Assembly (NCBI GenBank): GCA_964510165.1
Contig: CAZEBC010000143.1
Span: forward strand, 1 to 10,504
Origin: an uncultured bacterium
GTDB lineage: Bacteria; Abyssobacteria; SURF-5
Direction: 5' to 3'
DNA length: 10,504 bases
In this document: in pieces, positions 1,649-10,478 of the stretch
How positions within the stretch are numbered: position 1 is the first letter of the stretch
Layout of the letters: every line of letters begins with the position of its first letter
Translations under genes and position numbers: made by a program
Notes under the pieces: generated by a model
Told to the model about the DNA's origin: nothing
Database searches by the model: none
What the model saw: the letters and a program-made list of their open reading frames with translations, nothing else

Positions 1649-2947
1649 TCACGCCTTGCTCTGCTCGACCAGTTCCTGCATGCTGAGTCCGTCCAACGCC
1701 GAATCAAGCCCCGTCGCCACTTCCTCAAAAGCCTTCTTGAGCCGTCGCGAGATTGGGTCTTTGATGTCCACAGGCACGAGCATCTTGCTTCCCGTCGCCG
1801 CCTCGATCACTTCGCGAACGGTTATGTGAGATGGATGCCTCGCAGGAACGTATTCATTCTCCTCAGTAAACGTGATCAGATGCTTCTCGGACAGGCGGCC
1901 CAGGATATCTCCCACCACCTCGGCCGGAATCTTGATGCTGTCCAAAGCGTCCACGGTGCTCGTCTGTTGCTGCTCGGAATCGTTGAATCGTCTGACGATC
2001 TCGGCCATCGCGCGCACCGAGTAGAAGTCGAGATAGCGCACCGATTCGGCATAATCAGTCGTCACCTTTTCGCCATGGTATTGAACCGCGTACGCGACCT
2101 CTGTCCCGAACAGCACAATCAACCACGTCAAATAAACCCAAAGCAGGAACACGGGCACGGTGCCGAGAGACCCATAGACCTTGTCAAACGTCGCCATGTT
2201 CGTAATGTACCAGTTAAATCCGTTCTTCGCCATCTCCCACAACGTGCCACCCACCACCGCCCCGATAGCCGCAGCCCGAATGCGCACGTGCGTATAAGGC
2301 ACGAATTGATACATGAGCCAGAAAGCCGCCCACGTCAGCAGGTACCCGATGAACCTGAACCTCAGGGAGAAGACATCGGGACCCTGCGCAGCCAGTTTCG
2401 CGGCGATATAGAATGAAACAAAAACTAACAGCGGCGCCGCGGTGAGCACGGTCCAAAATGCCGTGAACTTGCTCAAAAACGGCCTGCGCTGTTTCGCATG
2501 CCATATCTCGTTGATTGTATGTTCGATGTTATTGAAAAGGAAGATCGCCGCGAGCAGGAGGGTCGTGACGCCGAATATGCCCAGCACCCCAACGTTCTCA
2601 ACATACTGAGTGAGATATTCCCGGACGATATCCGTGCGGGCAGGCACAAGGTTCCTGAACAGAAAATCCTGCACGCGTTCCTTTATGGCGCTGAACGCCT
2701 CCAGCTTGGTGAGCAGAAAGAAAAAGATGGCGCTGACAGGCACGAGCGCGAGCAGACTCGCAAACGCCAGCGCGCTCGCGCGAAGCACACACTTGTCGGC
2801 GAAGAACTCCTCGAATGCGCGAATGGCCACTCTGCCGGGATACAGCAGAATCTTCAGGTGCAGTGACGATTTCGAGATGTCGGCCTCACGAAATTGCTCG
2901 TAAAGCCCGGCGAGCCTATTGTGCCGTTTTGGGAACCTCTGCATCAT
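1649..2947 (-). CDS. YihY/virulence factor BrkB family inner-membrane protein with a C-terminal Rrf2-like winged helix-turn-helix (~432 aa)
   Basis: Family motifs: RASALAFASLLALVP, IEHTINEIW...RPFLSKFTAFW, MYQFVPYTHVRIRAAAIGAVVGG, VYGSLGTVPVFLLWVYLTWLIVLFGTEV. The C-terminal IPAEVVGDILGRLSEKHLI...YVPARHPSHITVREVIEA resembles the Rrf2 wHTH. The start is probably the ATG at 2947 or 2944; the track's 3244 start overlaps the divergent kinase. Confidence 0.9.
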   Translation of the reverse strand: MMQRFPKRHNRLAGLYEQFREADISKSSLHLKILLYPGRVAIRAFEEFFADKCVLRASALAFASLLALVPVSAIFFFLLTKLEAFSAIKERVQDFLFRNLVPARTDIVREYLTQYVENVGVLGIFGVTTLLLAAIFLFNNIEHTINEIWHAKQRRPFLSKFTAFWTVLTAAPLLVFVSFYIAAKLAAQGPDVFSLRFRFIGYLLTWAAFWLMYQFVPYTHVRIRAAAIGAVVGGTLWEMAKNGFNWYITNMATFDKVYGSLGTVPVFLLWVYLTWLIVLFGTEVAYAVQYHGEKVTTDYAESVRYLDFYSVRAMAEIVRRFNDSEQQQTSTVDALDSIKIPAEVVGDILGRLSEKHLITFTEENEYVPARHPSHITVREVIEAATGSKMLVPVDIKDPISRRLKKAFEEVATGLDSALDGLSMQELVEQSKA

Positions 2948-3228: not shown

Positions 3229-4296
3229 ATGAAGACGGAATCAAAGGTCTTGGTCCTGGCAGTTGCCCTCGGCCTGTGCGTCGGCTTCGTTGACGCGCTC
3301 CTGGACTACCTCTTCTTCTACGACCTCCCCTTCCTCGACCTGCTTATCCTCGACGTGCCGCCGCATGAGATATACTTTCGTTCGCTCATCTTGGTCTCCA
3401 TGATCTCCATCGGGGCCATCGTCGGAAAGCTGCTTGCGAAATGCCGCCGCGTGGAACATGAACTGCGCGAGGCCCGCGAACATCTCGAGCGGCGGGTCGA
3501 GACGCGGACGGCTGAACTCGCCAGGTCCAGCGAACTCCTTAGACGTGAGATCGAGGAAAGAACCAGGACGGAACTCGAACTTCGCTCTTCCCAGGAAAAG
3601 CTCAGCGCGCTTTCTTCAACCCTCCTCTCCGCCCAGGAAAACGAGCGACAACGAATCTCGCTCGAACTCCATGACGAACTCGGCCAGTCGCTTGCGCTCC
3701 TTAAGCTGCGCCTGCGATCCATTGAACGAAAGCTCGACGCGGCGCGGCCGGAAATCAAGCAGGAGTGCGACGAGACAATCAATTCCCTCGATGAAATCAT
3801 TGAGAGCGTCCGCCGAATCTCTCACGACCTCTGCCCCTCCGTAATCGAAAGCCTCGGCCTGTGCGTCGCCCTCCGAAGCCTCATGAACGATTTCGCTAAA
3901 CATTTCGGCGTCAAGCTGACGCTCGACATGGAGCGCATCGAACATCTGTTCTCGCGCGAATCGCAAATCCTGATTTACCGAATCTTTCAGGAGGCCTTCA
4001 GCAACATCGGGAAGCACGCCCACGCGGAGAATGTCAGGGTTTCAATCAGGAAGGACGAACGCGCCATCATTATCCTGATCGAGGACGACGGAAAGGGATT
4101 CGAACCTGACATGATCAACTCCGGCAAACCCCGCCCAAGAGGAATGGGCCTCGCGGCCATGAAAGAAAGAGTGCGCATGCTCGGAGGGCAGATGACGATA
4201 ACCAGCCGTGACGGAGAGGGGACCCGCATACGCCTGACATTGCCGAGTCGCGTGAATCGAGAGTCCATTCCGCCCGGAATAGGTAATACTACCTAA
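3229..4296 (+). CDS. Membrane-bound sensor histidine kinase, HisKA_3 (NarX/UhpB/DegS-type) plus HATPase_c (355 aa)
   Basis: H-box ERQRISLELHDELGQSL, N-box IFQEAFSNIGKHAHA, G1 IEDDGKGF, G2 GMGLAAMKERVRMLGG. Two N-terminal hydrophobic segments and a coiled-coil linker (LERRVETRTAEL) precede these. Confidence 0.93.
   Translation: MKTESKVLVLAVALGLCVGFVDALLDYLFFYDLPFLDLLILDVPPHEIYFRSLILVSMISIGAIVGKLLAKCRRVEHELREAREHLERRVETRTAELARSSELLRREIEERTRTELELRSSQEKLSALSSTLLSAQENERQRISLELHDELGQSLALLKLRLRSIERKLDAARPEIKQECDETINSLDEIIESVRRISHDLCPSVIESLGLCVALRSLMNDFAKHFGVKLTLDMERIEHLFSRESQILIYRIFQEAFSNIGKHAHAENVRVSIRKDERAIIILIEDDGKGFEPDMINSGKPRPRGMGLAAMKERVRMLGGQMTITSRDGEGTRIRLTLPSRVNRESIPPGIGNTT
4280..4295. promoter_or_regulatory. 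Perfect inverted repeat TAGGTA-N4-TACCTA, candidate NarL/LuxR-family response-regulator box
   Basis: The palindrome is seen directly. Its half-site resembles the NarL-type TACYY motif. It lies about 26 bp upstream of the candidate -35 element. Confidence 0.4.
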
Positions 4297-4622: not shown

Positions 4623-6206
4623 ATGAAGAGGAGAGAATTCATCAAGATGGGGATGGGCGGACTTGCGTTCATAACGGCGGGCTCGGTCCTCGCCGGTCGG
4701 AAGGGCGGACTTGCCCACGCGGCCGCTCCGCTGCAACAGGGCGGCGTGACCTTGAACATCAACCTCACAATGGAAGAGGTCATGCTCGAGATGGTGGACA
4801 AGATTCCCGTCTACCATTGGGCCTATAGGGACCCGGTCAACGGGCTGCGCGTCCCGGGGTCGGTCATCGTGGCGGTGGAGGGCGACACCCTCAATTTCCG
4901 AGTGCGCAACCTCTTGCCCGGCGGAATCCATTCTTTCGCGGTTCCGGGCATCGCGGAGAGCCCCATTATCCCGAGGGGCGACACGGTATCTCTCAGTTTC
5001 GCAGCGCCCCCCGCTGGAACGTACATGTACTGCGATCCGCTTCAATTCGGCAAGAGCCGGGCGATGGGACTGCACGGGATGCTCATTGTTCTGCCCCGGG
5101 TCGGCAACACGCCGTACAGCAATCCGACGCCGGCGGTTCAACAACTCTTCAACCACCTTGGAACCTTGAACTGGTCTCCGGGGCGCGGTTCCGCGCATTA
5201 TCCGGGTCATCCCTGGGACCCCGACCGCTCGTTCATCTGGATTTTCCATACCGTCGATTCAGTCAAGCACGAGGCCGTCCGGCAGAACCCCGACTTGAGG
5301 GGCGAACCCTTCTTGGACGGCTATCGGCCCGACTATTTCCTCATCAGCGGCAAGAGCGGCTTCTTCCTGTCTCATGACGACCACATAGGTCCCCACGGAA
5401 ATGTCGGCCAGCCGGCCCTTATCCGCGCGATGAACGCAGGGCTGAACAACGCTTCTCCTCACATCCACGGCAACCACGTGTACATGCTTGCCGAGAACAA
5501 CGCGCTTGCGCAAACCCACTTGCCCCTTCCCCTGCCAGCGAACGGCCACATACACGAAAACGTGGTCCTGCTTGAGACGTGGACGATGAGGCCGGGTGAC
5601 CGGAAGGACCTCCTGCTGCCGTTCATGCTTCCGCCGGATATCCCCGTTGAGAGGGACGTGGATTTCACCTGGGCGCCGCTCTCGCTGGAGGAGAGAATCG
5701 GCAGAGGAGGCAGCGAAAAGGCGTGGCCTCCTATAGAGGAGCCGTTCCCGCTCGTGTATCCTATGCATGACCATGACGAAATCTCTCAAACTGCCGCGCA
5801 CGGCAACTATCCGCAAGGAGCAGTCCTCCACTGGCAAATTGACGGCGACATTGACATGGAGATCGTCGAGGACGTGTTCGGGGCCAACCGGAGGCAGGTC
5901 ACCCAGGTCGTGCCGGGCAAAGACGGCGTCATCCTGGTGGATGTCGCGGACGTGAACCTGGCGACCAGGACCCTGACCGTGACGGGCCGCTACTCCGGCC
6001 TGCGCGGCGACACGCTCACAATATTTGCCGGCTCGACACTTGACGGCCTGCAACTCGGACAGACAACGGTCACTCCCGACGGCACATGGGCATTCGTGCT
6101 GACGGTGAACCGGATACCGCCCGCTGCGCGGAACATGCGAACGATAAGCATACGAAACGAGAATACCGGCGCCACACGGCTGGGTGTTCGCTTCCAGATA
6201 GTTTAA
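4623..6206 (+). CDS. Tat-exported cupredoxin/multicopper-oxidase-like protein, 'subunit A' (527 aa): two cupredoxin domains plus a C-terminal Ig-like beta domain
   Basis: GGAGG at 4613-4617 precedes ATG 4623. Tat signal MKRREFIK...LAHA. MCO-fold motifs PGSVIVAVEGDTLNFRVRN and APPAGTYMY. Domain 2 has SPHIHGNH (5460-5477) and YPMHDH (5766-5774). Confidence 0.88.
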   Translation: MKRREFIKMGMGGLAFITAGSVLAGRKGGLAHAAAPLQQGGVTLNINLTMEEVMLEMVDKIPVYHWAYRDPVNGLRVPGSVIVAVEGDTLNFRVRNLLPGGIHSFAVPGIAESPIIPRGDTVSLSFAAPPAGTYMYCDPLQFGKSRAMGLHGMLIVLPRVGNTPYSNPTPAVQQLFNHLGTLNWSPGRGSAHYPGHPWDPDRSFIWIFHTVDSVKHEAVRQNPDLRGEPFLDGYRPDYFLISGKSGFFLSHDDHIGPHGNVGQPALIRAMNAGLNNASPHIHGNHVYMLAENNALAQTHLPLPLPANGHIHENVVLLETWTMRPGDRKDLLLPFMLPPDIPVERDVDFTWAPLSLEERIGRGGSEKAWPPIEEPFPLVYPMHDHDEISQTAAHGNYPQGAVLHWQIDGDIDMEIVEDVFGANRRQVTQVVPGKDGVILVDVADVNLATRTLTVTGRYSGLRGDTLTIFAGSTLDGLQLGQTTVTPDGTWAFVLTVNRIPPAARNMRTISIRNENTGATRLGVRFQIV

Positions 6207-6223
6207 GCAGAGGAGACACGAAC

Positions 6224-7528
6224 ATGGCGATAACTGACATAATCCCGCGAGATCTCAATCATCCTTTCGACCCGGCCAACCCGGGCGACCTCACCGAGTT
6301 CCGCCAGCACGGCTGCTCGATCCCGGCATGCACCGACCTGCAATTCCGAATTCCTCTATCGAGGATAGACCCGGAAGTGGTGGGCGGCGAGGACAGAGAC
6401 CGAATCCTGAACCTGGTCGTGCCCGAACTCGCCAGAATCCCCACGCCGGACGGTTCGGCTCTGGCGACGCCGGACCGCGTGGTCGCCGACAGGTTCTTCT
6501 TCCGACAGATGGCGCATGGTATTTTCGTTCCGGACGGCAAGAGCGGAACGGTGGAGGTCTGGAGCTTTGACGACACCGGTCCGAACCAGATTTTCGATGT
6601 TTGGCCGGCGCCGACCATCCGCGCCAGGGAAGGCGACATGGTACACACCATGTTGACTACCCGGCGCGGCACCCACACCATTCATCATCACGGCATCGAG
6701 CCGACCACGATGAACGACGGCGTGGGCCACATCTCCTTCGAGGTCGACGGCGGCGGTTACACCTATCAATGGCTTGCTCGCGAGGCCGGCACCTACTTCT
6801 ATCATTGCCACAAGAACACCGTGCTCCACTTTGAGATGGGAATGTACGGCTTCCTGATAATTGACCCGCCAGAGCCGGACGCTCCCTATGTTGACGGCGG
6901 TCCGGGCGCCATTCGAGTCGGAAACGACATCGTTCGATACGACCAGGAGAAGCTGTGGGCGGTCGATGAGCTTGATTTCCGGTGGCACAGCATCGTCGGC
7001 AAGCGAGTGGACTCGGGCGTCGAGTGCGATTTCTATCACGCGACCATAGACGGCATCCCGATACCGGGCACGAACATCCCGATGCCGGACGGGCCTGACC
7101 CGCTGATGCACCGCTTCGAACCGACCATCTTCACTATATCGGGCGTCGCGGTTGACCAGACACAGGGGCCGCCCCCATGGATGATGACCGACCCGCGCGT
7201 CGCTATCACGGCGCAAAGGGGCCAAAAAGTCGTCCTGCGGCTTCTGTGCGCGGGCTACACCACTCAGGTGTTCCGGTTCGGGCTGCCGTGCACACTTATC
7301 GAAGTGGATAACCGCACGCTCGGCTACGGTCCGCGCCAGCAGTATTCGCACCCGGAAGCGATACCGGCCAAACAGCCGTTCGAGATGACCACGGCCCGGA
7401 AAAAGGTGTTCCTGTTCGACACCACGGACATAGCGCCGAAAACCTATCCGATGCGGGTCGATTTCATAGACTGGGTCAATGGAAGGGTATGGGGAACCGT
7501 CATAGCTACGTTCACAGTGACCCCGTAA
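6224..7528 (+). CDS. Multicopper-oxidase-like protein, 'subunit B' (434 aa), with a complete type-1 Cu site in domain 1 and no signal peptide
   Basis: AGGAG RBS at 6211-6215 precedes ATG 6224, 17 bp after the previous stop. Motifs: [18 protein letters not shown] (6674-6694) and [22 protein letters not shown] (HCH at 6803-6811, H at 6827, M at 6842). Confidence 0.9.
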
Positions 7529-7661: not shown

Positions 7662-10478
7662 ATGCGTGTGATGGCACGACAAAAGGCAAGACGCCCAGGG
7701 AATCTTGGAAGAAAATCCGTCCCGGCGGCATTAGCGCTCTCTCTAGCGCTTGTGGCCTTTTTCGCGGGAAGCGCGTGGGCGGTCACAATTCCGGTTCCGG
7801 AACCGGATGGTCTCGATGAATTCATCCGGGACAGGAACATGGCCATAGTGCTCGGAAAGGCGCTATATTGGGATATGCAGGTCGGAAGCGACGGCGTCAC
7901 AGCCTGCGCCTCATGCCATTTCCATGCCGGCGCCGACGCCCGCTTCCGCAACCAGATCAATCCGGGGCAGCTTGGCGGCGATAACACCTTTAATACGGCG
8001 CCGCCAAATGCCGCGCTCAAGTTCGATTTCTTCCCGCTCCACAAGCTCACGGACCCCAACGACGAGCATTCCCAGGTCATCTCTACCAGCGACGACGTGA
8101 TCTCCTCGCAGGGAGTGTTCCTTCACGATTTCGCGGGAGTCGTCCCCGGAAGCGCGACCGACCTGGGCACGGAGCGCCCAGATCCCGTGTTTAATGTCAA
8201 TGGAATCAACACAAGACGAGTCGAGCCCAGGAACACGCCGACCGTCATAAATGCGGTCTTCAACCTGGCCAACTTCTGGGATGGCCGCGCCAACACCATC
8301 TTCAACGGCGTCAACCCATTCGGCCCGGCCGACCTCACAAGCGGCGTGTACGTGGACCGGGGAACAGGTCTGGCGACAGAACTCGTCAGACTCAACAACT
8401 CCGCCCTCGCCTCCCAGGCCGTGGGGCCCCCGCTCAGCAACTTCGAGATGTCCTTTGGCGGGCGCACGTTCCCTGATATCGGCAAGAAAATGCTCTCGCT
8501 TCAGCCCCTCGCGAAACAGCTTGTCCATCCGCAGGACGGCTACCTCGGCCCTTACTCCAAGGCGACTCTTGACGCGAGAGGACGTGCGCGGGGAACGCCA
8601 GGAATTACGAAAAATTACAAGGGCCTCATAGCAGCCGCGTTCCAGCCCAGATACTGGGCCAACAACACCCAGATAGTCAGGATCACCGACGGGATACCCG
8701 AGGTTGTGCCCAAACCCGACCGCGCACTTGAGGCCAACGAGTTCACGCAGATGGAGATCAACTTCTCGCTCTTCTTCGGACTGTCCATTCAGCTTTACGA
8801 GGCGACGCTCGTCTCGAACGATTCGCCGTTCGATCGGTTCGCAGCGGGCGACCCCTCTGCGCTCACTCCCCAGCAGCAGCAGGGGTTTGAGATATTCCAG
8901 GGCCGCGGCAATTGCATCGTCTGTCACGCGGGCGCCGAGTTCACGCTTGCCACGGTGAATGACCTAGTGGGGCTGACTCCCGAAGCGGTCGCCCTGACCG
9001 CCAAGCTTGACGGCGGACAGGTCGTCCCGCCGGTCGCCACCGCCGCCAAGGGCCTGGCGGTGCTGACCCTCGATGCGCTCCGTACAAAGATCGTCTTCGA
9101 CCTGAGGACCGAGAATATCACGGACATAACATCCGCTCGCATCCATTCGGGTGTGCCGGGCCAGAATGGGCCAGCCATGTTCACATTGTCCGCGACCGGC
9201 TTTGTGGACCGGGCGACCGGCTCATTAACCGAGGCCAGTTTCACGCCCGTGCCGGGGATCCCAACTTTCGCGGACGCGCTCCAGGCGATGATCAAGGGCG
9301 AGACGCATCTGCTCGTGACCACTGCGGCGAGTCCTTCAGGCGAGATACGCGGACAAATCGAACAGGCCGTGTTCGTCATGGACGCCAGGCTTTCAAAATA
9401 CCAAGTGGTCCCCCCGACCACCAGCACCGCCATCGCCTCAGCTGAATTCATCAGCGAGCCTTTCACCGACCGGATCGATTTTGAGGTTTCCGTGACCAGG
9501 ATAAACACGGCGGAGGTCACCGCGGTCGATCTGCGCCTCGGCGCCGTCGGACAGAACGGGCCGGTCATCTTCAACCTGTTTGTCGTTCCCTTCAATCGCA
9601 ACGCGATAGAAGGAGTCCTGCGGCCGGAGCACCTCATCCCGGCGCCCGGCATATCAACCTTCGCGGAAGCCATTGACGCGATGTTTGCCGGCGAGACGTA
9701 TGTCGAGATTCGCACACAGGCGTTCCCTGAAGGTGAAATACGCGGCCAGGTATTTGCCGCTCCCGAACTGCTCCTCAACCCCATCGAACTCATGAACATG
9801 GCCGTCGGCAGGGCGTTCTATGACAACGGCTTCTACAACACGGGCATTCGATTGCCGGAACACGACATTGGCAGAGGCGGTAACGACCCATTCGGGCTTC
9901 CGCTCTCGTTCTCCAAACTGGCGGTGCTCAAGAGCGAGGGACTGCTGCCGCCCGAAATGGAGGGGTTTGTCCCCAACCTGCCTTCTGGCGTGACCGACCC
10001 TCCCAACCGCACCGCCGTCAACGCCGCGTTTAAGACGCCGGGCCTTCGCAATGTCGAACTGACGACCCCCTACTTCCACAACGGCGCATTTGGAACGCTC
10101 AGACAGGTAGTTGACTTCTATGCGCGCGGCGGAAACTTCTCCGATGAGAACATCGAGAACCTGGCGCCGCTCATCGCGCCCATCCCCGGAATGGATGAGG
10201 CCGCAAGGAGCGCGCTCGTATCCTTCCTGCTCTCCCTCACCGACCAACGAGTGAAGAACGAGTCGTTCCCGTTCGACCATCCGCAGTTGTTTGTGCCGAA
10301 CGGTCAGAAGGGAGACGAAAACCAGATACTCGGCGATTGCTCGAGTTTCAACCCGCTCGGCTTCAAACGCTGCGAGCGCATCATGGCCATACCCGCCGTC
10401 GGAGCGCAAGGCCGTTCCGCAGCCGGGTTCCCGCCGCTTCGGGCTCCGGTAGACCATTTTGACCCCAATTACAACTAG
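7662..10478 (+). CDS. Secreted diheme cytochrome c of the bCCP/MauG superfamily (938 aa) with two inserted CHRD domains
   Basis: AAGGAGG at 7647-7653 precedes ATG 7662. Sec-type signal ending ...AFFAGSAWA. Motifs: [13 protein letters not shown] (7905-7919), [20 protein letters not shown] (8913-8927), [19 protein letters not shown] and VVDFY. Confidence 0.92.
8994..9752 (+). other. Two tandem CHRD domains (about 8994-9359 and 9372-9752) inside the diheme protein
   Basis: Each repeat has AxL...QVVPP, GxxGQNGP and the CHRD C-terminal signature PxGEIRGQ[IV]. Confidence 0.85.

What the first reader, a model, noticed from the sequence alone, without database searches (positions are those of the whole stretch)
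7662..10478. The 'peroxidase' has MauG-type residues (His-Tyr heme, bridging Trp), suggesting a high-valent enzyme rather than a plain CCP
Seen: TTPYFH806[14 protein letters not shown]820 has Tyr 14 residues after the His and no Met there. Also present are FW206DGRA, RNTP and [12 protein letters not shown]. Established (from recall): MauG has His280...Tyr294 (the axial ligand), Trp93 as the hopping residue, and a Gln103/Pro107/Glu113 distal pocket with the same spacings. Canonical bCCPs use a Met ligand. Tyr-ligated members (MauG, BthA, MbnH) form bis-Fe(IV), and MauG and MbnH oxidise Trp in a neighbouring gene's product. Inference: this enzyme may modify or redox-couple to the adjacent MCO pair, or oxidise the same substrate using H2O2.
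Basis: partly seen in the sequence, partly recalled or inferred. Interest (0 to 1): 0.75.

Follow-up and report, generated by a model that had tools for sequence, protein, structure and literature searches.

The report
Tyrosine-ligated haem partner of copper oxidases
This gene encodes a two-haem enzyme of a large, barely studied family whose second haem is predicted to be held by a tyrosine as in strongly oxidising MauG-type enzymes, and because family members repeatedly sit beside, co-occur with or are fused to multicopper oxidases, it likely works with the neighbouring copper oxidase as its hydrogen-peroxide-using arm.

Summary
The residues are real. Tyr820 aligns without gaps to MauG's axial Tyr294 and is kept in 376 of 381 relatives; the rival Met711 is not kept. 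Only the Tyr is diagnostic: the bridging Trp, Gln/Pro/Glu pocket and PYFH His are also in ordinary Met-ligated peroxidases. The protein is neither MauG nor MbnH (109 and 108 bits; cut-offs 444 and 363). It belongs to the long (~680 aa core, at least 5087 relatives) subfamily of Methylococcus SACCP/MCA2590 and CorB, whose Tyr is already aligned with MauG's in print. New support for a link to multicopper oxidases: a conserved A-B-peroxidase gene order, 12 of 12 genomes with oxidase subunit B in one order also carry the peroxidase (20 of 83 overall), and 17 of the best 120 long relatives are oxidase-peroxidase fusions. Best reading: an exported H2O2-driven oxidant acting beside the O2-driven oxidase (0.4); a Trp-modifying maturase is the main rival (0.3). 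No target is identified and no chemistry is measured. The scan noted this long family beside a copper oxidase before, on other DNA.

The parts
7662..10478 (+). Long di-haem enzyme of the SACCP/CorB subfamily with two inserted CHRD domains, 938 aa
   Evidence: AlphaFold2 model mean pLDDT 91.3, best structural match MbnH 6e1c Z 23.0, rmsd 2.7, 319 aligned, tied with open-form canonical peroxidases
7662..7781 (+). Predicted Sec-type signal peptide (basic start, hydrophobic stretch, AWA at 38-40)
   Evidence: read from the sequence; no signal-peptide program was run
7869..7871 (+). Trp70, family-specific (Phe in MauG and canonical peroxidases); candidate extra redox relay (inferred)
   Evidence: 383 of 386 non-gap rows; Fig. 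S1 of PMC4831470
7905..7919 (+). Haem 1 motif CASCH (82-86), predicted peroxide-binding haem
8229..8240 (+). RNTP (190-193), Asn191 in line with the superfamily Ca2+ ligand position
   Evidence: role from recalled knowledge of MauG/bCCP
8277..8279 (+). Trp206, inter-haem Trp (MauG W93 position; shared with canonical peroxidases)
   Evidence: 361 of 388 rows
8415..8450 (+). Distal pocket Q252, P256, E262, M263 (shared with canonical peroxidases)
8655..8657 (+). Trp332, family-specific conserved Trp in an insertion; candidate surface relay (inferred, exposure not checked)
   Evidence: 375 of 388 rows
8913..8927 (+). Haem 2 motif CIVCH (418-422); His422 is the proximal ligand by motif
8994..9359 (+). 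CHRD domain 1 (445-566), inserted inside the haem-2 domain
   Evidence: Pfam PF07452; absent from most relatives
9369..9755 (+). CHRD domain 2 (about 570-698), 38% identical to domain 1; one His, no Cys
   Evidence: SOD-like beta-barrel Z 9-10
9783..9800 (+). IELMNM (708-713): the rival Met711, on a beta-strand of an insertion; not family-wide
   Evidence: 280 of 367 non-gap rows; 3 of 22 methanotroph rows; Thr in SACCP by HMM alignment; strand in model
10119..10121 (+). Tyr820, predicted distal axial ligand of haem 2 (MauG Tyr294 position)
   Evidence: gapless alignment; 376 of 381
10272..10283 (+). FDHP (871-874), C-terminal signature of the long subfamily, shared with SACCP
4623..6206 (+). 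Oxidase subunit A: twin-arginine-type start, HIH and HDH histidine pairs, no complete blue-copper site
6224..7528 (+). Oxidase subunit B: no signal peptide seen, HTIHHHG and [14 protein letters not shown] (complete type-1 copper motif)
3229..4296 (+). HisKA_3 sensor kinase upstream; the same kinase type flanks the peroxidase genes in close relatives

Best explanation
The gene encodes a two-haem enzyme of the SACCP/CorB subfamily with Tyr820 at MauG's axial-ligand position, and it likely works outside the cytoplasm as the H2O2-driven arm of an oxidation module whose O2-driven arm is the neighbouring split multicopper oxidase. Shown: motifs, Tyr position, family, gene order, co-occurrence, fusions in relatives. 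Inferred: H2O2 would bind at haem 1 (Glu262, Gln252, Pro256); one oxidising equivalent would move through Trp206 to the His422/Tyr820 haem, giving a bis-Fe(IV) state as in MauG, MbnH and BthA; this state would pull electrons over a distance (Trp70 and Trp332 are candidate relays) from the same reduced donor that the oxidase oxidises with O2, so that the module removes both oxidants and oxidises one donor. The donor is not identified; a reduced metal such as Mn(II)/Fe(II) or a phenolic/humic compound is a guess. The CHRD pair is an optional insertion, likely a binding or spacing module without metal. Layered odds: SACCP/CorB-type family 0.9; Tyr ligation 0.9; bis-Fe(IV) 0.75; functional link to the A/B oxidase 0.7; this particular mechanism 0.4.
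For: Tyr alignment and conservation. Gene order A-B-peroxidase on one strand in L110, L114, L181, L192, L193, with one gene between in L118 and L054 and a gap in L180. One order, all 83 genomes: B in 12, peroxidase in 20, all 12 have both (hypergeometric 1.3e-9), 6 of the 12 within 0.3-2.6 kb, B upstream. Phylum sample of 301: B 7, peroxidase 8, both 5. Fusions: 17 of the best 120 long relatives carry a type-1 copper motif and at least four HxH pairs besides the peroxidase core, 6 clusters at 60% identity, in both domain orders; 16 of these were checked and keep the Tyr. Partner oxidases are of several unrelated types, and 2 of the 120 are fused to a galactose/glyoxal-oxidase-like domain (one rescanned), a type that makes H2O2 (recalled), which fits shared chemistry better than one specific target residue. 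Many long members carry Ig-like, cadherin-like, S-layer or sugar-binding domains, and SACCP itself is found at the cell surface (PMC4831470, PMC3912023 passages). BthA turns over H2O2 with an external donor while also forming bis-Fe(IV) (PMC6405878 passage).
Against: No activity, spectrum or substrate for any member was found in the papers I could read. Most family members have no oxidase nearby: motif found in 6 of 36 genome loci, 10 of 77 metagenome loci, 1 of 20 methanotroph regions and 2 of 14 regions from an even gammaproteobacterial sample, plus one partial hit; many loci are short. 8 of 20 peroxidase genomes in the order have no B match at E<=1e-25; 2 of 7 B genomes in the phylum sample have no peroxidase match. 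The own genome has two further A/B pairs with no peroxidase beside them on their contigs. Genomes are kin, so the p-values overstate. None of the fusions involves the A/B type (no A or B hits). Tyr-type enzymes are described as poor dye-linked peroxidases (PMC11892367), and those with a known target oxidise a protein Trp. Multicopper oxidases normally reduce O2 to water without releasing H2O2 (recalled), so the peroxide source is open.
Confidence: 0.4

Rival explanations
1. Maturase: the bis-Fe(IV) state oxidises a Trp (to kynurenine) or forms a cross-link in a co-exported protein, here subunit A or B or the recurrent neighbour X (about 400 aa exported protein without Pfam match).
For: MauG modifies preMADH and MbnH installs kynurenine in MbnP (PMC11951088 passages). 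Within this very family the methanotroph members lie beside MopE and CorA homologues, which carry kynurenine, and SACCP/CorB are proposed to make it (PMC3912023). B has conserved Trps (W245 120/120, W417 115/120, W254 113/120, W113 111/120). X lies next to or near the peroxidase in L004, L054, L118, L121, L147, L180, L181, L192, L193 and is fused to it in 4 proteins.
Against: A and B together already supply a full His/Cys/Met copper set; no multicopper oxidase is known to me to need a Trp cofactor (recalled). No invariant Trp in 14 X sequences. The MopE/CorA/PEP-CTERM-linked members form their own clade (support 1.0) apart from the window protein. Partners are unrelated to one another. No MopE or CorA homologue lies in the window.
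Confidence: 0.3
2. Stand-alone peroxide scavenger: a Tyr-ligated enzyme that protects the periplasm or surface from H2O2 and is merely co-regulated with the oxidase as part of an oxygen-response island.
For: BthA reduces H2O2 with a donor. Shared upstream kinase type. Most members have no oxidase beside them.
Against: The genome also encodes an ordinary Met-type peroxidase (L058). Repeated fusion to oxidases in both orders and 12 of 12 co-occurrence are more than co-regulation needs.
Confidence: 0.17
3. Electron-transfer subunit: the two haems pass electrons to or from the type-1 copper of subunit B without using H2O2.
For: Fusions and operon. c-type cytochrome maturation is needed for Mn oxidation in Pseudomonas putida GB-1 (PMC13631088 passage); whether that strain has a member was not tested.
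Against: The peroxide-activating Glu/Gln/Pro are kept (E262 385 of 388). His/Tyr haems are low-potential, about -100 to -200 mV, though that would still allow donation to copper.
Confidence: 0.09
4. Ordinary Met-ligated cytochrome c peroxidase, with Met711 or Met713 as haem-2 ligand.
For: Met711 in 112 of 120 nearest relatives; phmmer and Foldseek rank canonical peroxidases as high as MauG-type ones.
Against: The canonical Met position (His+14) holds Tyr. Met711 drops to 280 of 367 family-wide and 3 of 22 methanotroph rows, while Tyr820 stays. Atom distances could not be read from the model.
Confidence: 0.04

Closest known systems
SACCP (MCA2590, Methylococcus capsulatus Bath; AAU91314.1) and CorB (Methylomicrobium album BG8): long subfamily of the bCCP/MauG superfamily
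   Same: Same long core with the same insertions, LGKALxWD, [17 protein letters not shown], Tyr at His+14, C-terminal FDHP. 40% identity over 443 and 45% over 146 columns to a SACCP orthologue; family HMM scores SACCP 613 bits against 124 for a MauG and under 100 for Met-type enzymes. P0249 matches the MCA2590 rows of Fig. S1 of PMC4831470.
   Different: Neighbour is a split multicopper oxidase, not MopE/CorA; different branch of the tree; two CHRD domains inserted. CorB itself was not fetched by name: CorA-adjacent members stand in for it.
MbnH (6e1c)
   Same: Tyr at the same position; best structural match, Z 23.0, rmsd 2.7, 319 aligned, tied within 1 Z with several canonical enzymes; copper-linked context.
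   Different: 107.7 bits against cut-off 362.85; no MbnP neighbour seen; about 300 extra core residues.
MauG (3l4m)
   Same: His280/Tyr294, Trp93, Gln103/Pro107/Glu113 positions all matched; Z 21.2, rmsd 2.4, 300 aligned.
   Different: 109 bits against cut-off 443.85; no mau genes in the window; no Trp at the Trp199 position.
BthA (6nx0)
   Same: Tyr-ligated, bis-Fe(IV), target unknown; Z 18.1.
   Different: BthA lacks the inter-haem Trp and Ca2+, both positions kept here.
CHRD domain (chordin, PF07452)
   Same: Two copies, SOD-like barrel; chordin's CHRD region binds sulphated glycans and lacks SOD's metal His (PMC13382577 passages).
   Different: Here inserted inside a haem domain; net acidic or neutral, so glycan binding is not implied.

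Membership tests
bCCP/MauG superfamily (PF03150) | Two CxxCH motifs and the di-haem peroxidase fold | tested here: met
MauG-type (Tyr-ligated) branch | Tyr at the haem-2 axial position in sequence | tested here: met
MauG-type (Tyr-ligated) branch | Tyr actually bound to haem-2 iron | not testable with these tools
MauG-type (Tyr-ligated) branch | bis-Fe(IV) near-IR band with H2O2 | not testable with these tools
   needs purified protein
MauG (TIGR03791) | Score above curated cut-off 443.85 | tested here: not met
   109 bits; CHRD-free relative 91.5
MauG (TIGR03791) | In a mau gene cluster | tested here: not met
   no mau genes among window ORFs scanned; the contig ends 26 bases after the gene
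MbnH (TIGR04039) | Score above cut-off 362.85, MbnP partner | tested here: not met
   107.7 bits; no MbnP match among the window proteins scanned
Canonical bCCP | Met at His+14 | tested here: not met
   Tyr820
SACCP/CorB long subfamily | Full-length homology to MCA2590 including insertions and FDHP tail | tested here: met
   (no curated model exists in the libraries scanned; my own HMM was used)
SACCP/CorB long subfamily | Groups with SACCP apart from short enzymes in a tree | tested here: inconclusive
   SACCP is nested among long members, but support at the base is 0.76 and two short proteins fell inside, probably by poor alignment
SACCP/CorB in the strict sense | Encoded beside MopE or CorA | tested here: not met
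   neighbours are oxidase A/B; downstream gene not in the assembly contig
SACCP/CorB in the strict sense | Copper-repressed, surface or periplasmic location | not testable with these tools
   signal peptide only read by eye

The most novel reading that the evidence does not exclude
The long SACCP/CorB subfamily is the overlooked H2O2 arm of bacterial exported multicopper-oxidase systems, including manganese-oxidase-like ones: a bis-Fe(IV) haem enzyme used in multiple turnover on a non-protein substrate, recruited again and again by operon and by fusion. It would be the first MauG-type enzyme with such a role and could explain why cytochrome c maturation is needed for bacterial Mn(II) oxidation.
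Probability: 0.3. Interest if true: 0.8.

Novelty: new variant of a known kind. Interest (0 to 1): 0.52.

Why it matters
Only three Tyr-ligated di-haem enzymes have a verified bis-Fe(IV) state in the papers I read, and the long subfamily, with at least 5087 sequences, has no solved member among the PDB hits. A recurring tie to multicopper oxidases gives it a testable job outside methanotrophs, and single-chain oxidase-peroxidase fusions in named Ramlibacter species are ready test objects. The Tyr itself is not news: it is aligned with MauG's in a published supplement for MCA2590.

Tried and rejected
Complex prediction of a cognate CHRD-free peroxidase with subunit B (both from L110): score 0.00, no verdict, not evidence either way. 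No RNA holder listed for the operon. ESM Atlas gave no answer. No relative of B found in viral contigs. Promoter/terminator scan at chance level. Haem-ligand distances could not be measured: no coordinates in the script box. The MbnH, MbnP and P. putida mcoA primary papers were not held; Karlsen 2005 and 2010 on SACCP and CorB were not seen, so a network figure or supplement there may already note oxidase neighbours. Eight paper searches were answered; none showed a paper linking this subfamily to multicopper oxidases or CHRD; subscription journals are mostly missing. Rejected: MauG or MbnH membership (scores); Met711 ligation (conservation); SOD-like metal site in the CHRD pair (2 and 1 His, no Cys); X as an obvious kynurenine carrier (no invariant Trp). 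No end-to-end overlap between the window contig and contig C76. Whether P. putida GB-1 has a member was not tested. Labels MofA-, McoA- or MnxG-like for the fused oxidases are recalled; only one source name says 'manganese oxidase' (P0270).

Full report
What is there. The window is a whole contig of a 4.17 Mb genome. Its right half holds, on one strand, a HisKA_3 kinase (3229-4296), oxidase subunit A (4623-6206), subunit B (6224-7528) and a 938-aa di-haem protein (7662-10478); the contig ends 26 bases later.

Which residues mean something. Residues 785-823 align without gaps to MauG 259-297, putting His806 on His280 and Tyr820 on Tyr294, and to MbnH. In Met-type enzymes the residue 14 after that His is Met (3hq8). 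But the same Met-type enzymes have FWDGRA and Gln, Pro+4, Glu+10, Met, and a 2025 paper states that the inter-haem Trp and Ca site are shared and that Met versus Tyr is the discriminator (PMC11892367, passages). So the case rests on Tyr820. It is kept in 120 of 120 nearest sequences and 376 of 381 non-gap rows of a 388-sequence set made of search hits and locus ORFs above 350 bits, not de-duplicated, duplicate loci left out. The rival Met711 is in 112 of 120 near relatives but only 280 of 367 overall and 3 of 22 methanotroph rows, where the alignment of this insertion is weak. His806 is Arg in 11 of 120. An AlphaFold2 model (pLDDT 91.3) matches MbnH best (Z 23.0, rmsd 2.7, 319 aligned), tied with open-form canonical enzymes, MauG at 21; a CHRD-free relative gives the same set. 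The models hold no haem, so ligation is inferred from alignment.

Family. NCBIfam scores are far below the MauG and MbnH cut-offs. The search found 5087 proteins at E<=1e-30 among 7995 candidates scored, mostly 650-720 aa. To name the family I found a methanotroph genome by pmoA, searched its family (44 of 64 genomes have a member), and fetched 20 regions. In L083 the gene lies directly before a MopE homologue (2vov, E 4.5e-213); others lie beside CorA homologues (4bz4). The cluster look-up returned AAU91314.1 of M. capsulatus Bath (P0249), whose segments match the MCA2590 rows of Fig. S1 of PMC4831470 (supplement read in full except a cut legend). That figure already lines up the MCA2590 Tyr with MauG's. 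The window protein is 40% and 45% identical to the L083 orthologue over 443 and 146 columns; a CHRD-free relative aligns with SACCP end to end (35%). PMC3912023 and PMC3621798 (passages) propose that SACCP and CorB make the kynurenine of MopE and CorA; PMC11951088 (passages) still lists that step as undetermined. In a FastTree tree of 73 chosen sequences the MopE/CorA/PEP-CTERM-linked members form a clade (1.0) inside the long family, and the window protein lies elsewhere among A/B-linked members, with weak deep support and two short proteins misplaced. So: member of the long subfamily, not a SACCP orthologue.

The insertion. Two CHRD domains (Pfam E 9.6e-40; 38% identical to each other) sit between CIVCH and the Tyr helix. 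15 of the best 120 near hits, the query included, list CHRD; forms with none, one and two exist, so it is optional. It has too few His for an SOD-type site.

The oxidase link. A carries two HxH pairs, B a full type-1 motif plus two more, agreeing with earlier scan notes on a split oxidase. The order A-B-peroxidase recurs in L110, L114, L181, L192, L193, L118, L054, L180. In all 83 genomes of one order, B matched in 12 and the peroxidase in 20; all 12 had both, 6 within 0.3-2.6 kb with B upstream. The order was picked from a genome known to have both; without it 11 of 11, p 5e-9. In an even sample of 301 genomes of a phylum, overlapping with that order, B 7, peroxidase 8, both 5; few candidates per genome were scored, so counts are floors. 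Kinship inflates these p-values. Among 776 long relatives the best 120 were listed; 17 carry a type-1 motif and at least four HxH pairs fused to the peroxidase core, in six clusters and both orders; 3 list SCO1, 2 a galactose/glyoxal-oxidase-like domain, 4 the X domain. Against: a copper-oxidase motif was found near the gene in only 6 of 36 genome loci (4 of 17 with 4 kb on both sides; L001/L002 dropped as duplicates, L032 with an oxidase dropped by the score cut), 10 of 77 metagenome loci (3 of 17), 1 of 20 methanotroph regions and 2 of 3 plasmid regions fetched of 7 full-length hits, and in 2 of 14 regions from 13 of the 16 positive genomes among 401 Gammaproteobacteria. The same motif gives 7 ORFs in the 4.17 Mb own genome, so these rates are well above background but the link is not universal. 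Other members lie in type II secretion clusters, beside C39-peptidase exporters, or between PEP-CTERM genes. The own genome has two more A/B pairs without an adjacent peroxidase and one Met-type peroxidase.

How it most likely works. By analogy with MauG, MbnH and BthA H2O2 at haem 1 would give a bis-Fe(IV) state spread over both haems through Trp206. What it oxidises is open. I favour a donor shared with the oxidase (0.4) because the partners are unrelated oxidases, fusions recur, A/B already has all its copper ligands, and neither A/B nor X shows a singled-out target Trp. A maturase role (0.3) has the best precedent, including inside this family. Scavenger (0.17), electron-transfer subunit (0.09) and Met-type peroxidase (0.04) follow.

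Novelty. The Tyr-ligated long subfamily is known from methanotrophs; the oxidase partnership and the CHRD insertion I did not find in eight answered searches, with key primary papers unavailable. Other papers seen as passages: PMC6405878, PMC11492766, PMC13689576, PMC4257694, PMC4831470 main text, PMC13382577, PMC13631088, PMC8218464; none of the passages mentions this pairing. An earlier scan note on other DNA reported the long family beside a manganese-oxidase-like enzyme; it is not independent evidence. Verdict: new variant of a known kind, interest 0.52.

Noticed in passing
G000:C76:350-1576 (+); also L004, L054, L118, L121, L147, L180, L181, L192, L193, L215: Protein X, about 400 aa exported, no Pfam match, recurs near the peroxidase and is fused to it in tandem in 4 proteins. 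In the own genome it starts 350 bases into contig C76, which may continue the window contig (no overlap found).
   Followed up: partly
P0261 and P0010: P0261 is 99.7% identical to residues 349-938 of the window protein and lists the same longest-contig length (6915) as the CHRD-free relative P0010, hinting at a second paralogue downstream that is missing from this assembly.
   Followed up: no
L054/L055 (G004:C193): A same-family genome has four long paralogues in one island (three with CHRD), with A/B, two X genes, a short Tyr-type peroxidase and three kinase genes.
   Followed up: partly
L003:10020-11885, L020, L023, L026, L028: Gammaproteobacterial members lie directly before an unknown 620-640 aa gene and beside ABC exporter genes (C39-peptidase type in L003 and L023), suggesting a peptide- or protein-modifying export locus.
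   Followed up: no
L010, L014, L016, L017, L030, L041: Planctomycete and some proteobacterial members sit inside or beside type II secretion gene clusters.
   Followed up: no
L089, L090, L091, L092, L094: Some methanotroph members lie between small exported genes; those scanned from L089 have PEP-CTERM-type tails, possible unrecognised clients.
   Followed up: no
P0356, P0376; P0328, P0330: Fusions of the peroxidase core to galactose/glyoxal-oxidase-like domains and to redoxin domains.
   Followed up: partly
window 4623-7528; G000:C140 and C239: Three split A/B oxidase pairs in this genome; only this one has the peroxidase beside it. A conventional laccase-like gene lies on C6.
   Followed up: partly
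window 5900-6206: Subunit A here has a C-terminal extension of about 100 residues absent from the other A sequences aligned.
   Followed up: no
window 1649-2941 (-): YihY/BrkB membrane protein fused to an Rrf2-like winged-helix domain; an unknown 237 aa gene (881-1594, -) follows.
   Followed up: no
window 10338-10373: A Cys pair (893, 904) near the C-terminus, shared with the closest relatives only; possible disulphide.
   Followed up: no
L059 (G000:C276:236-1006): A stand-alone exported CHRD protein in the same genome; one X-family protein (L147) also carries CHRD.
   Followed up: no
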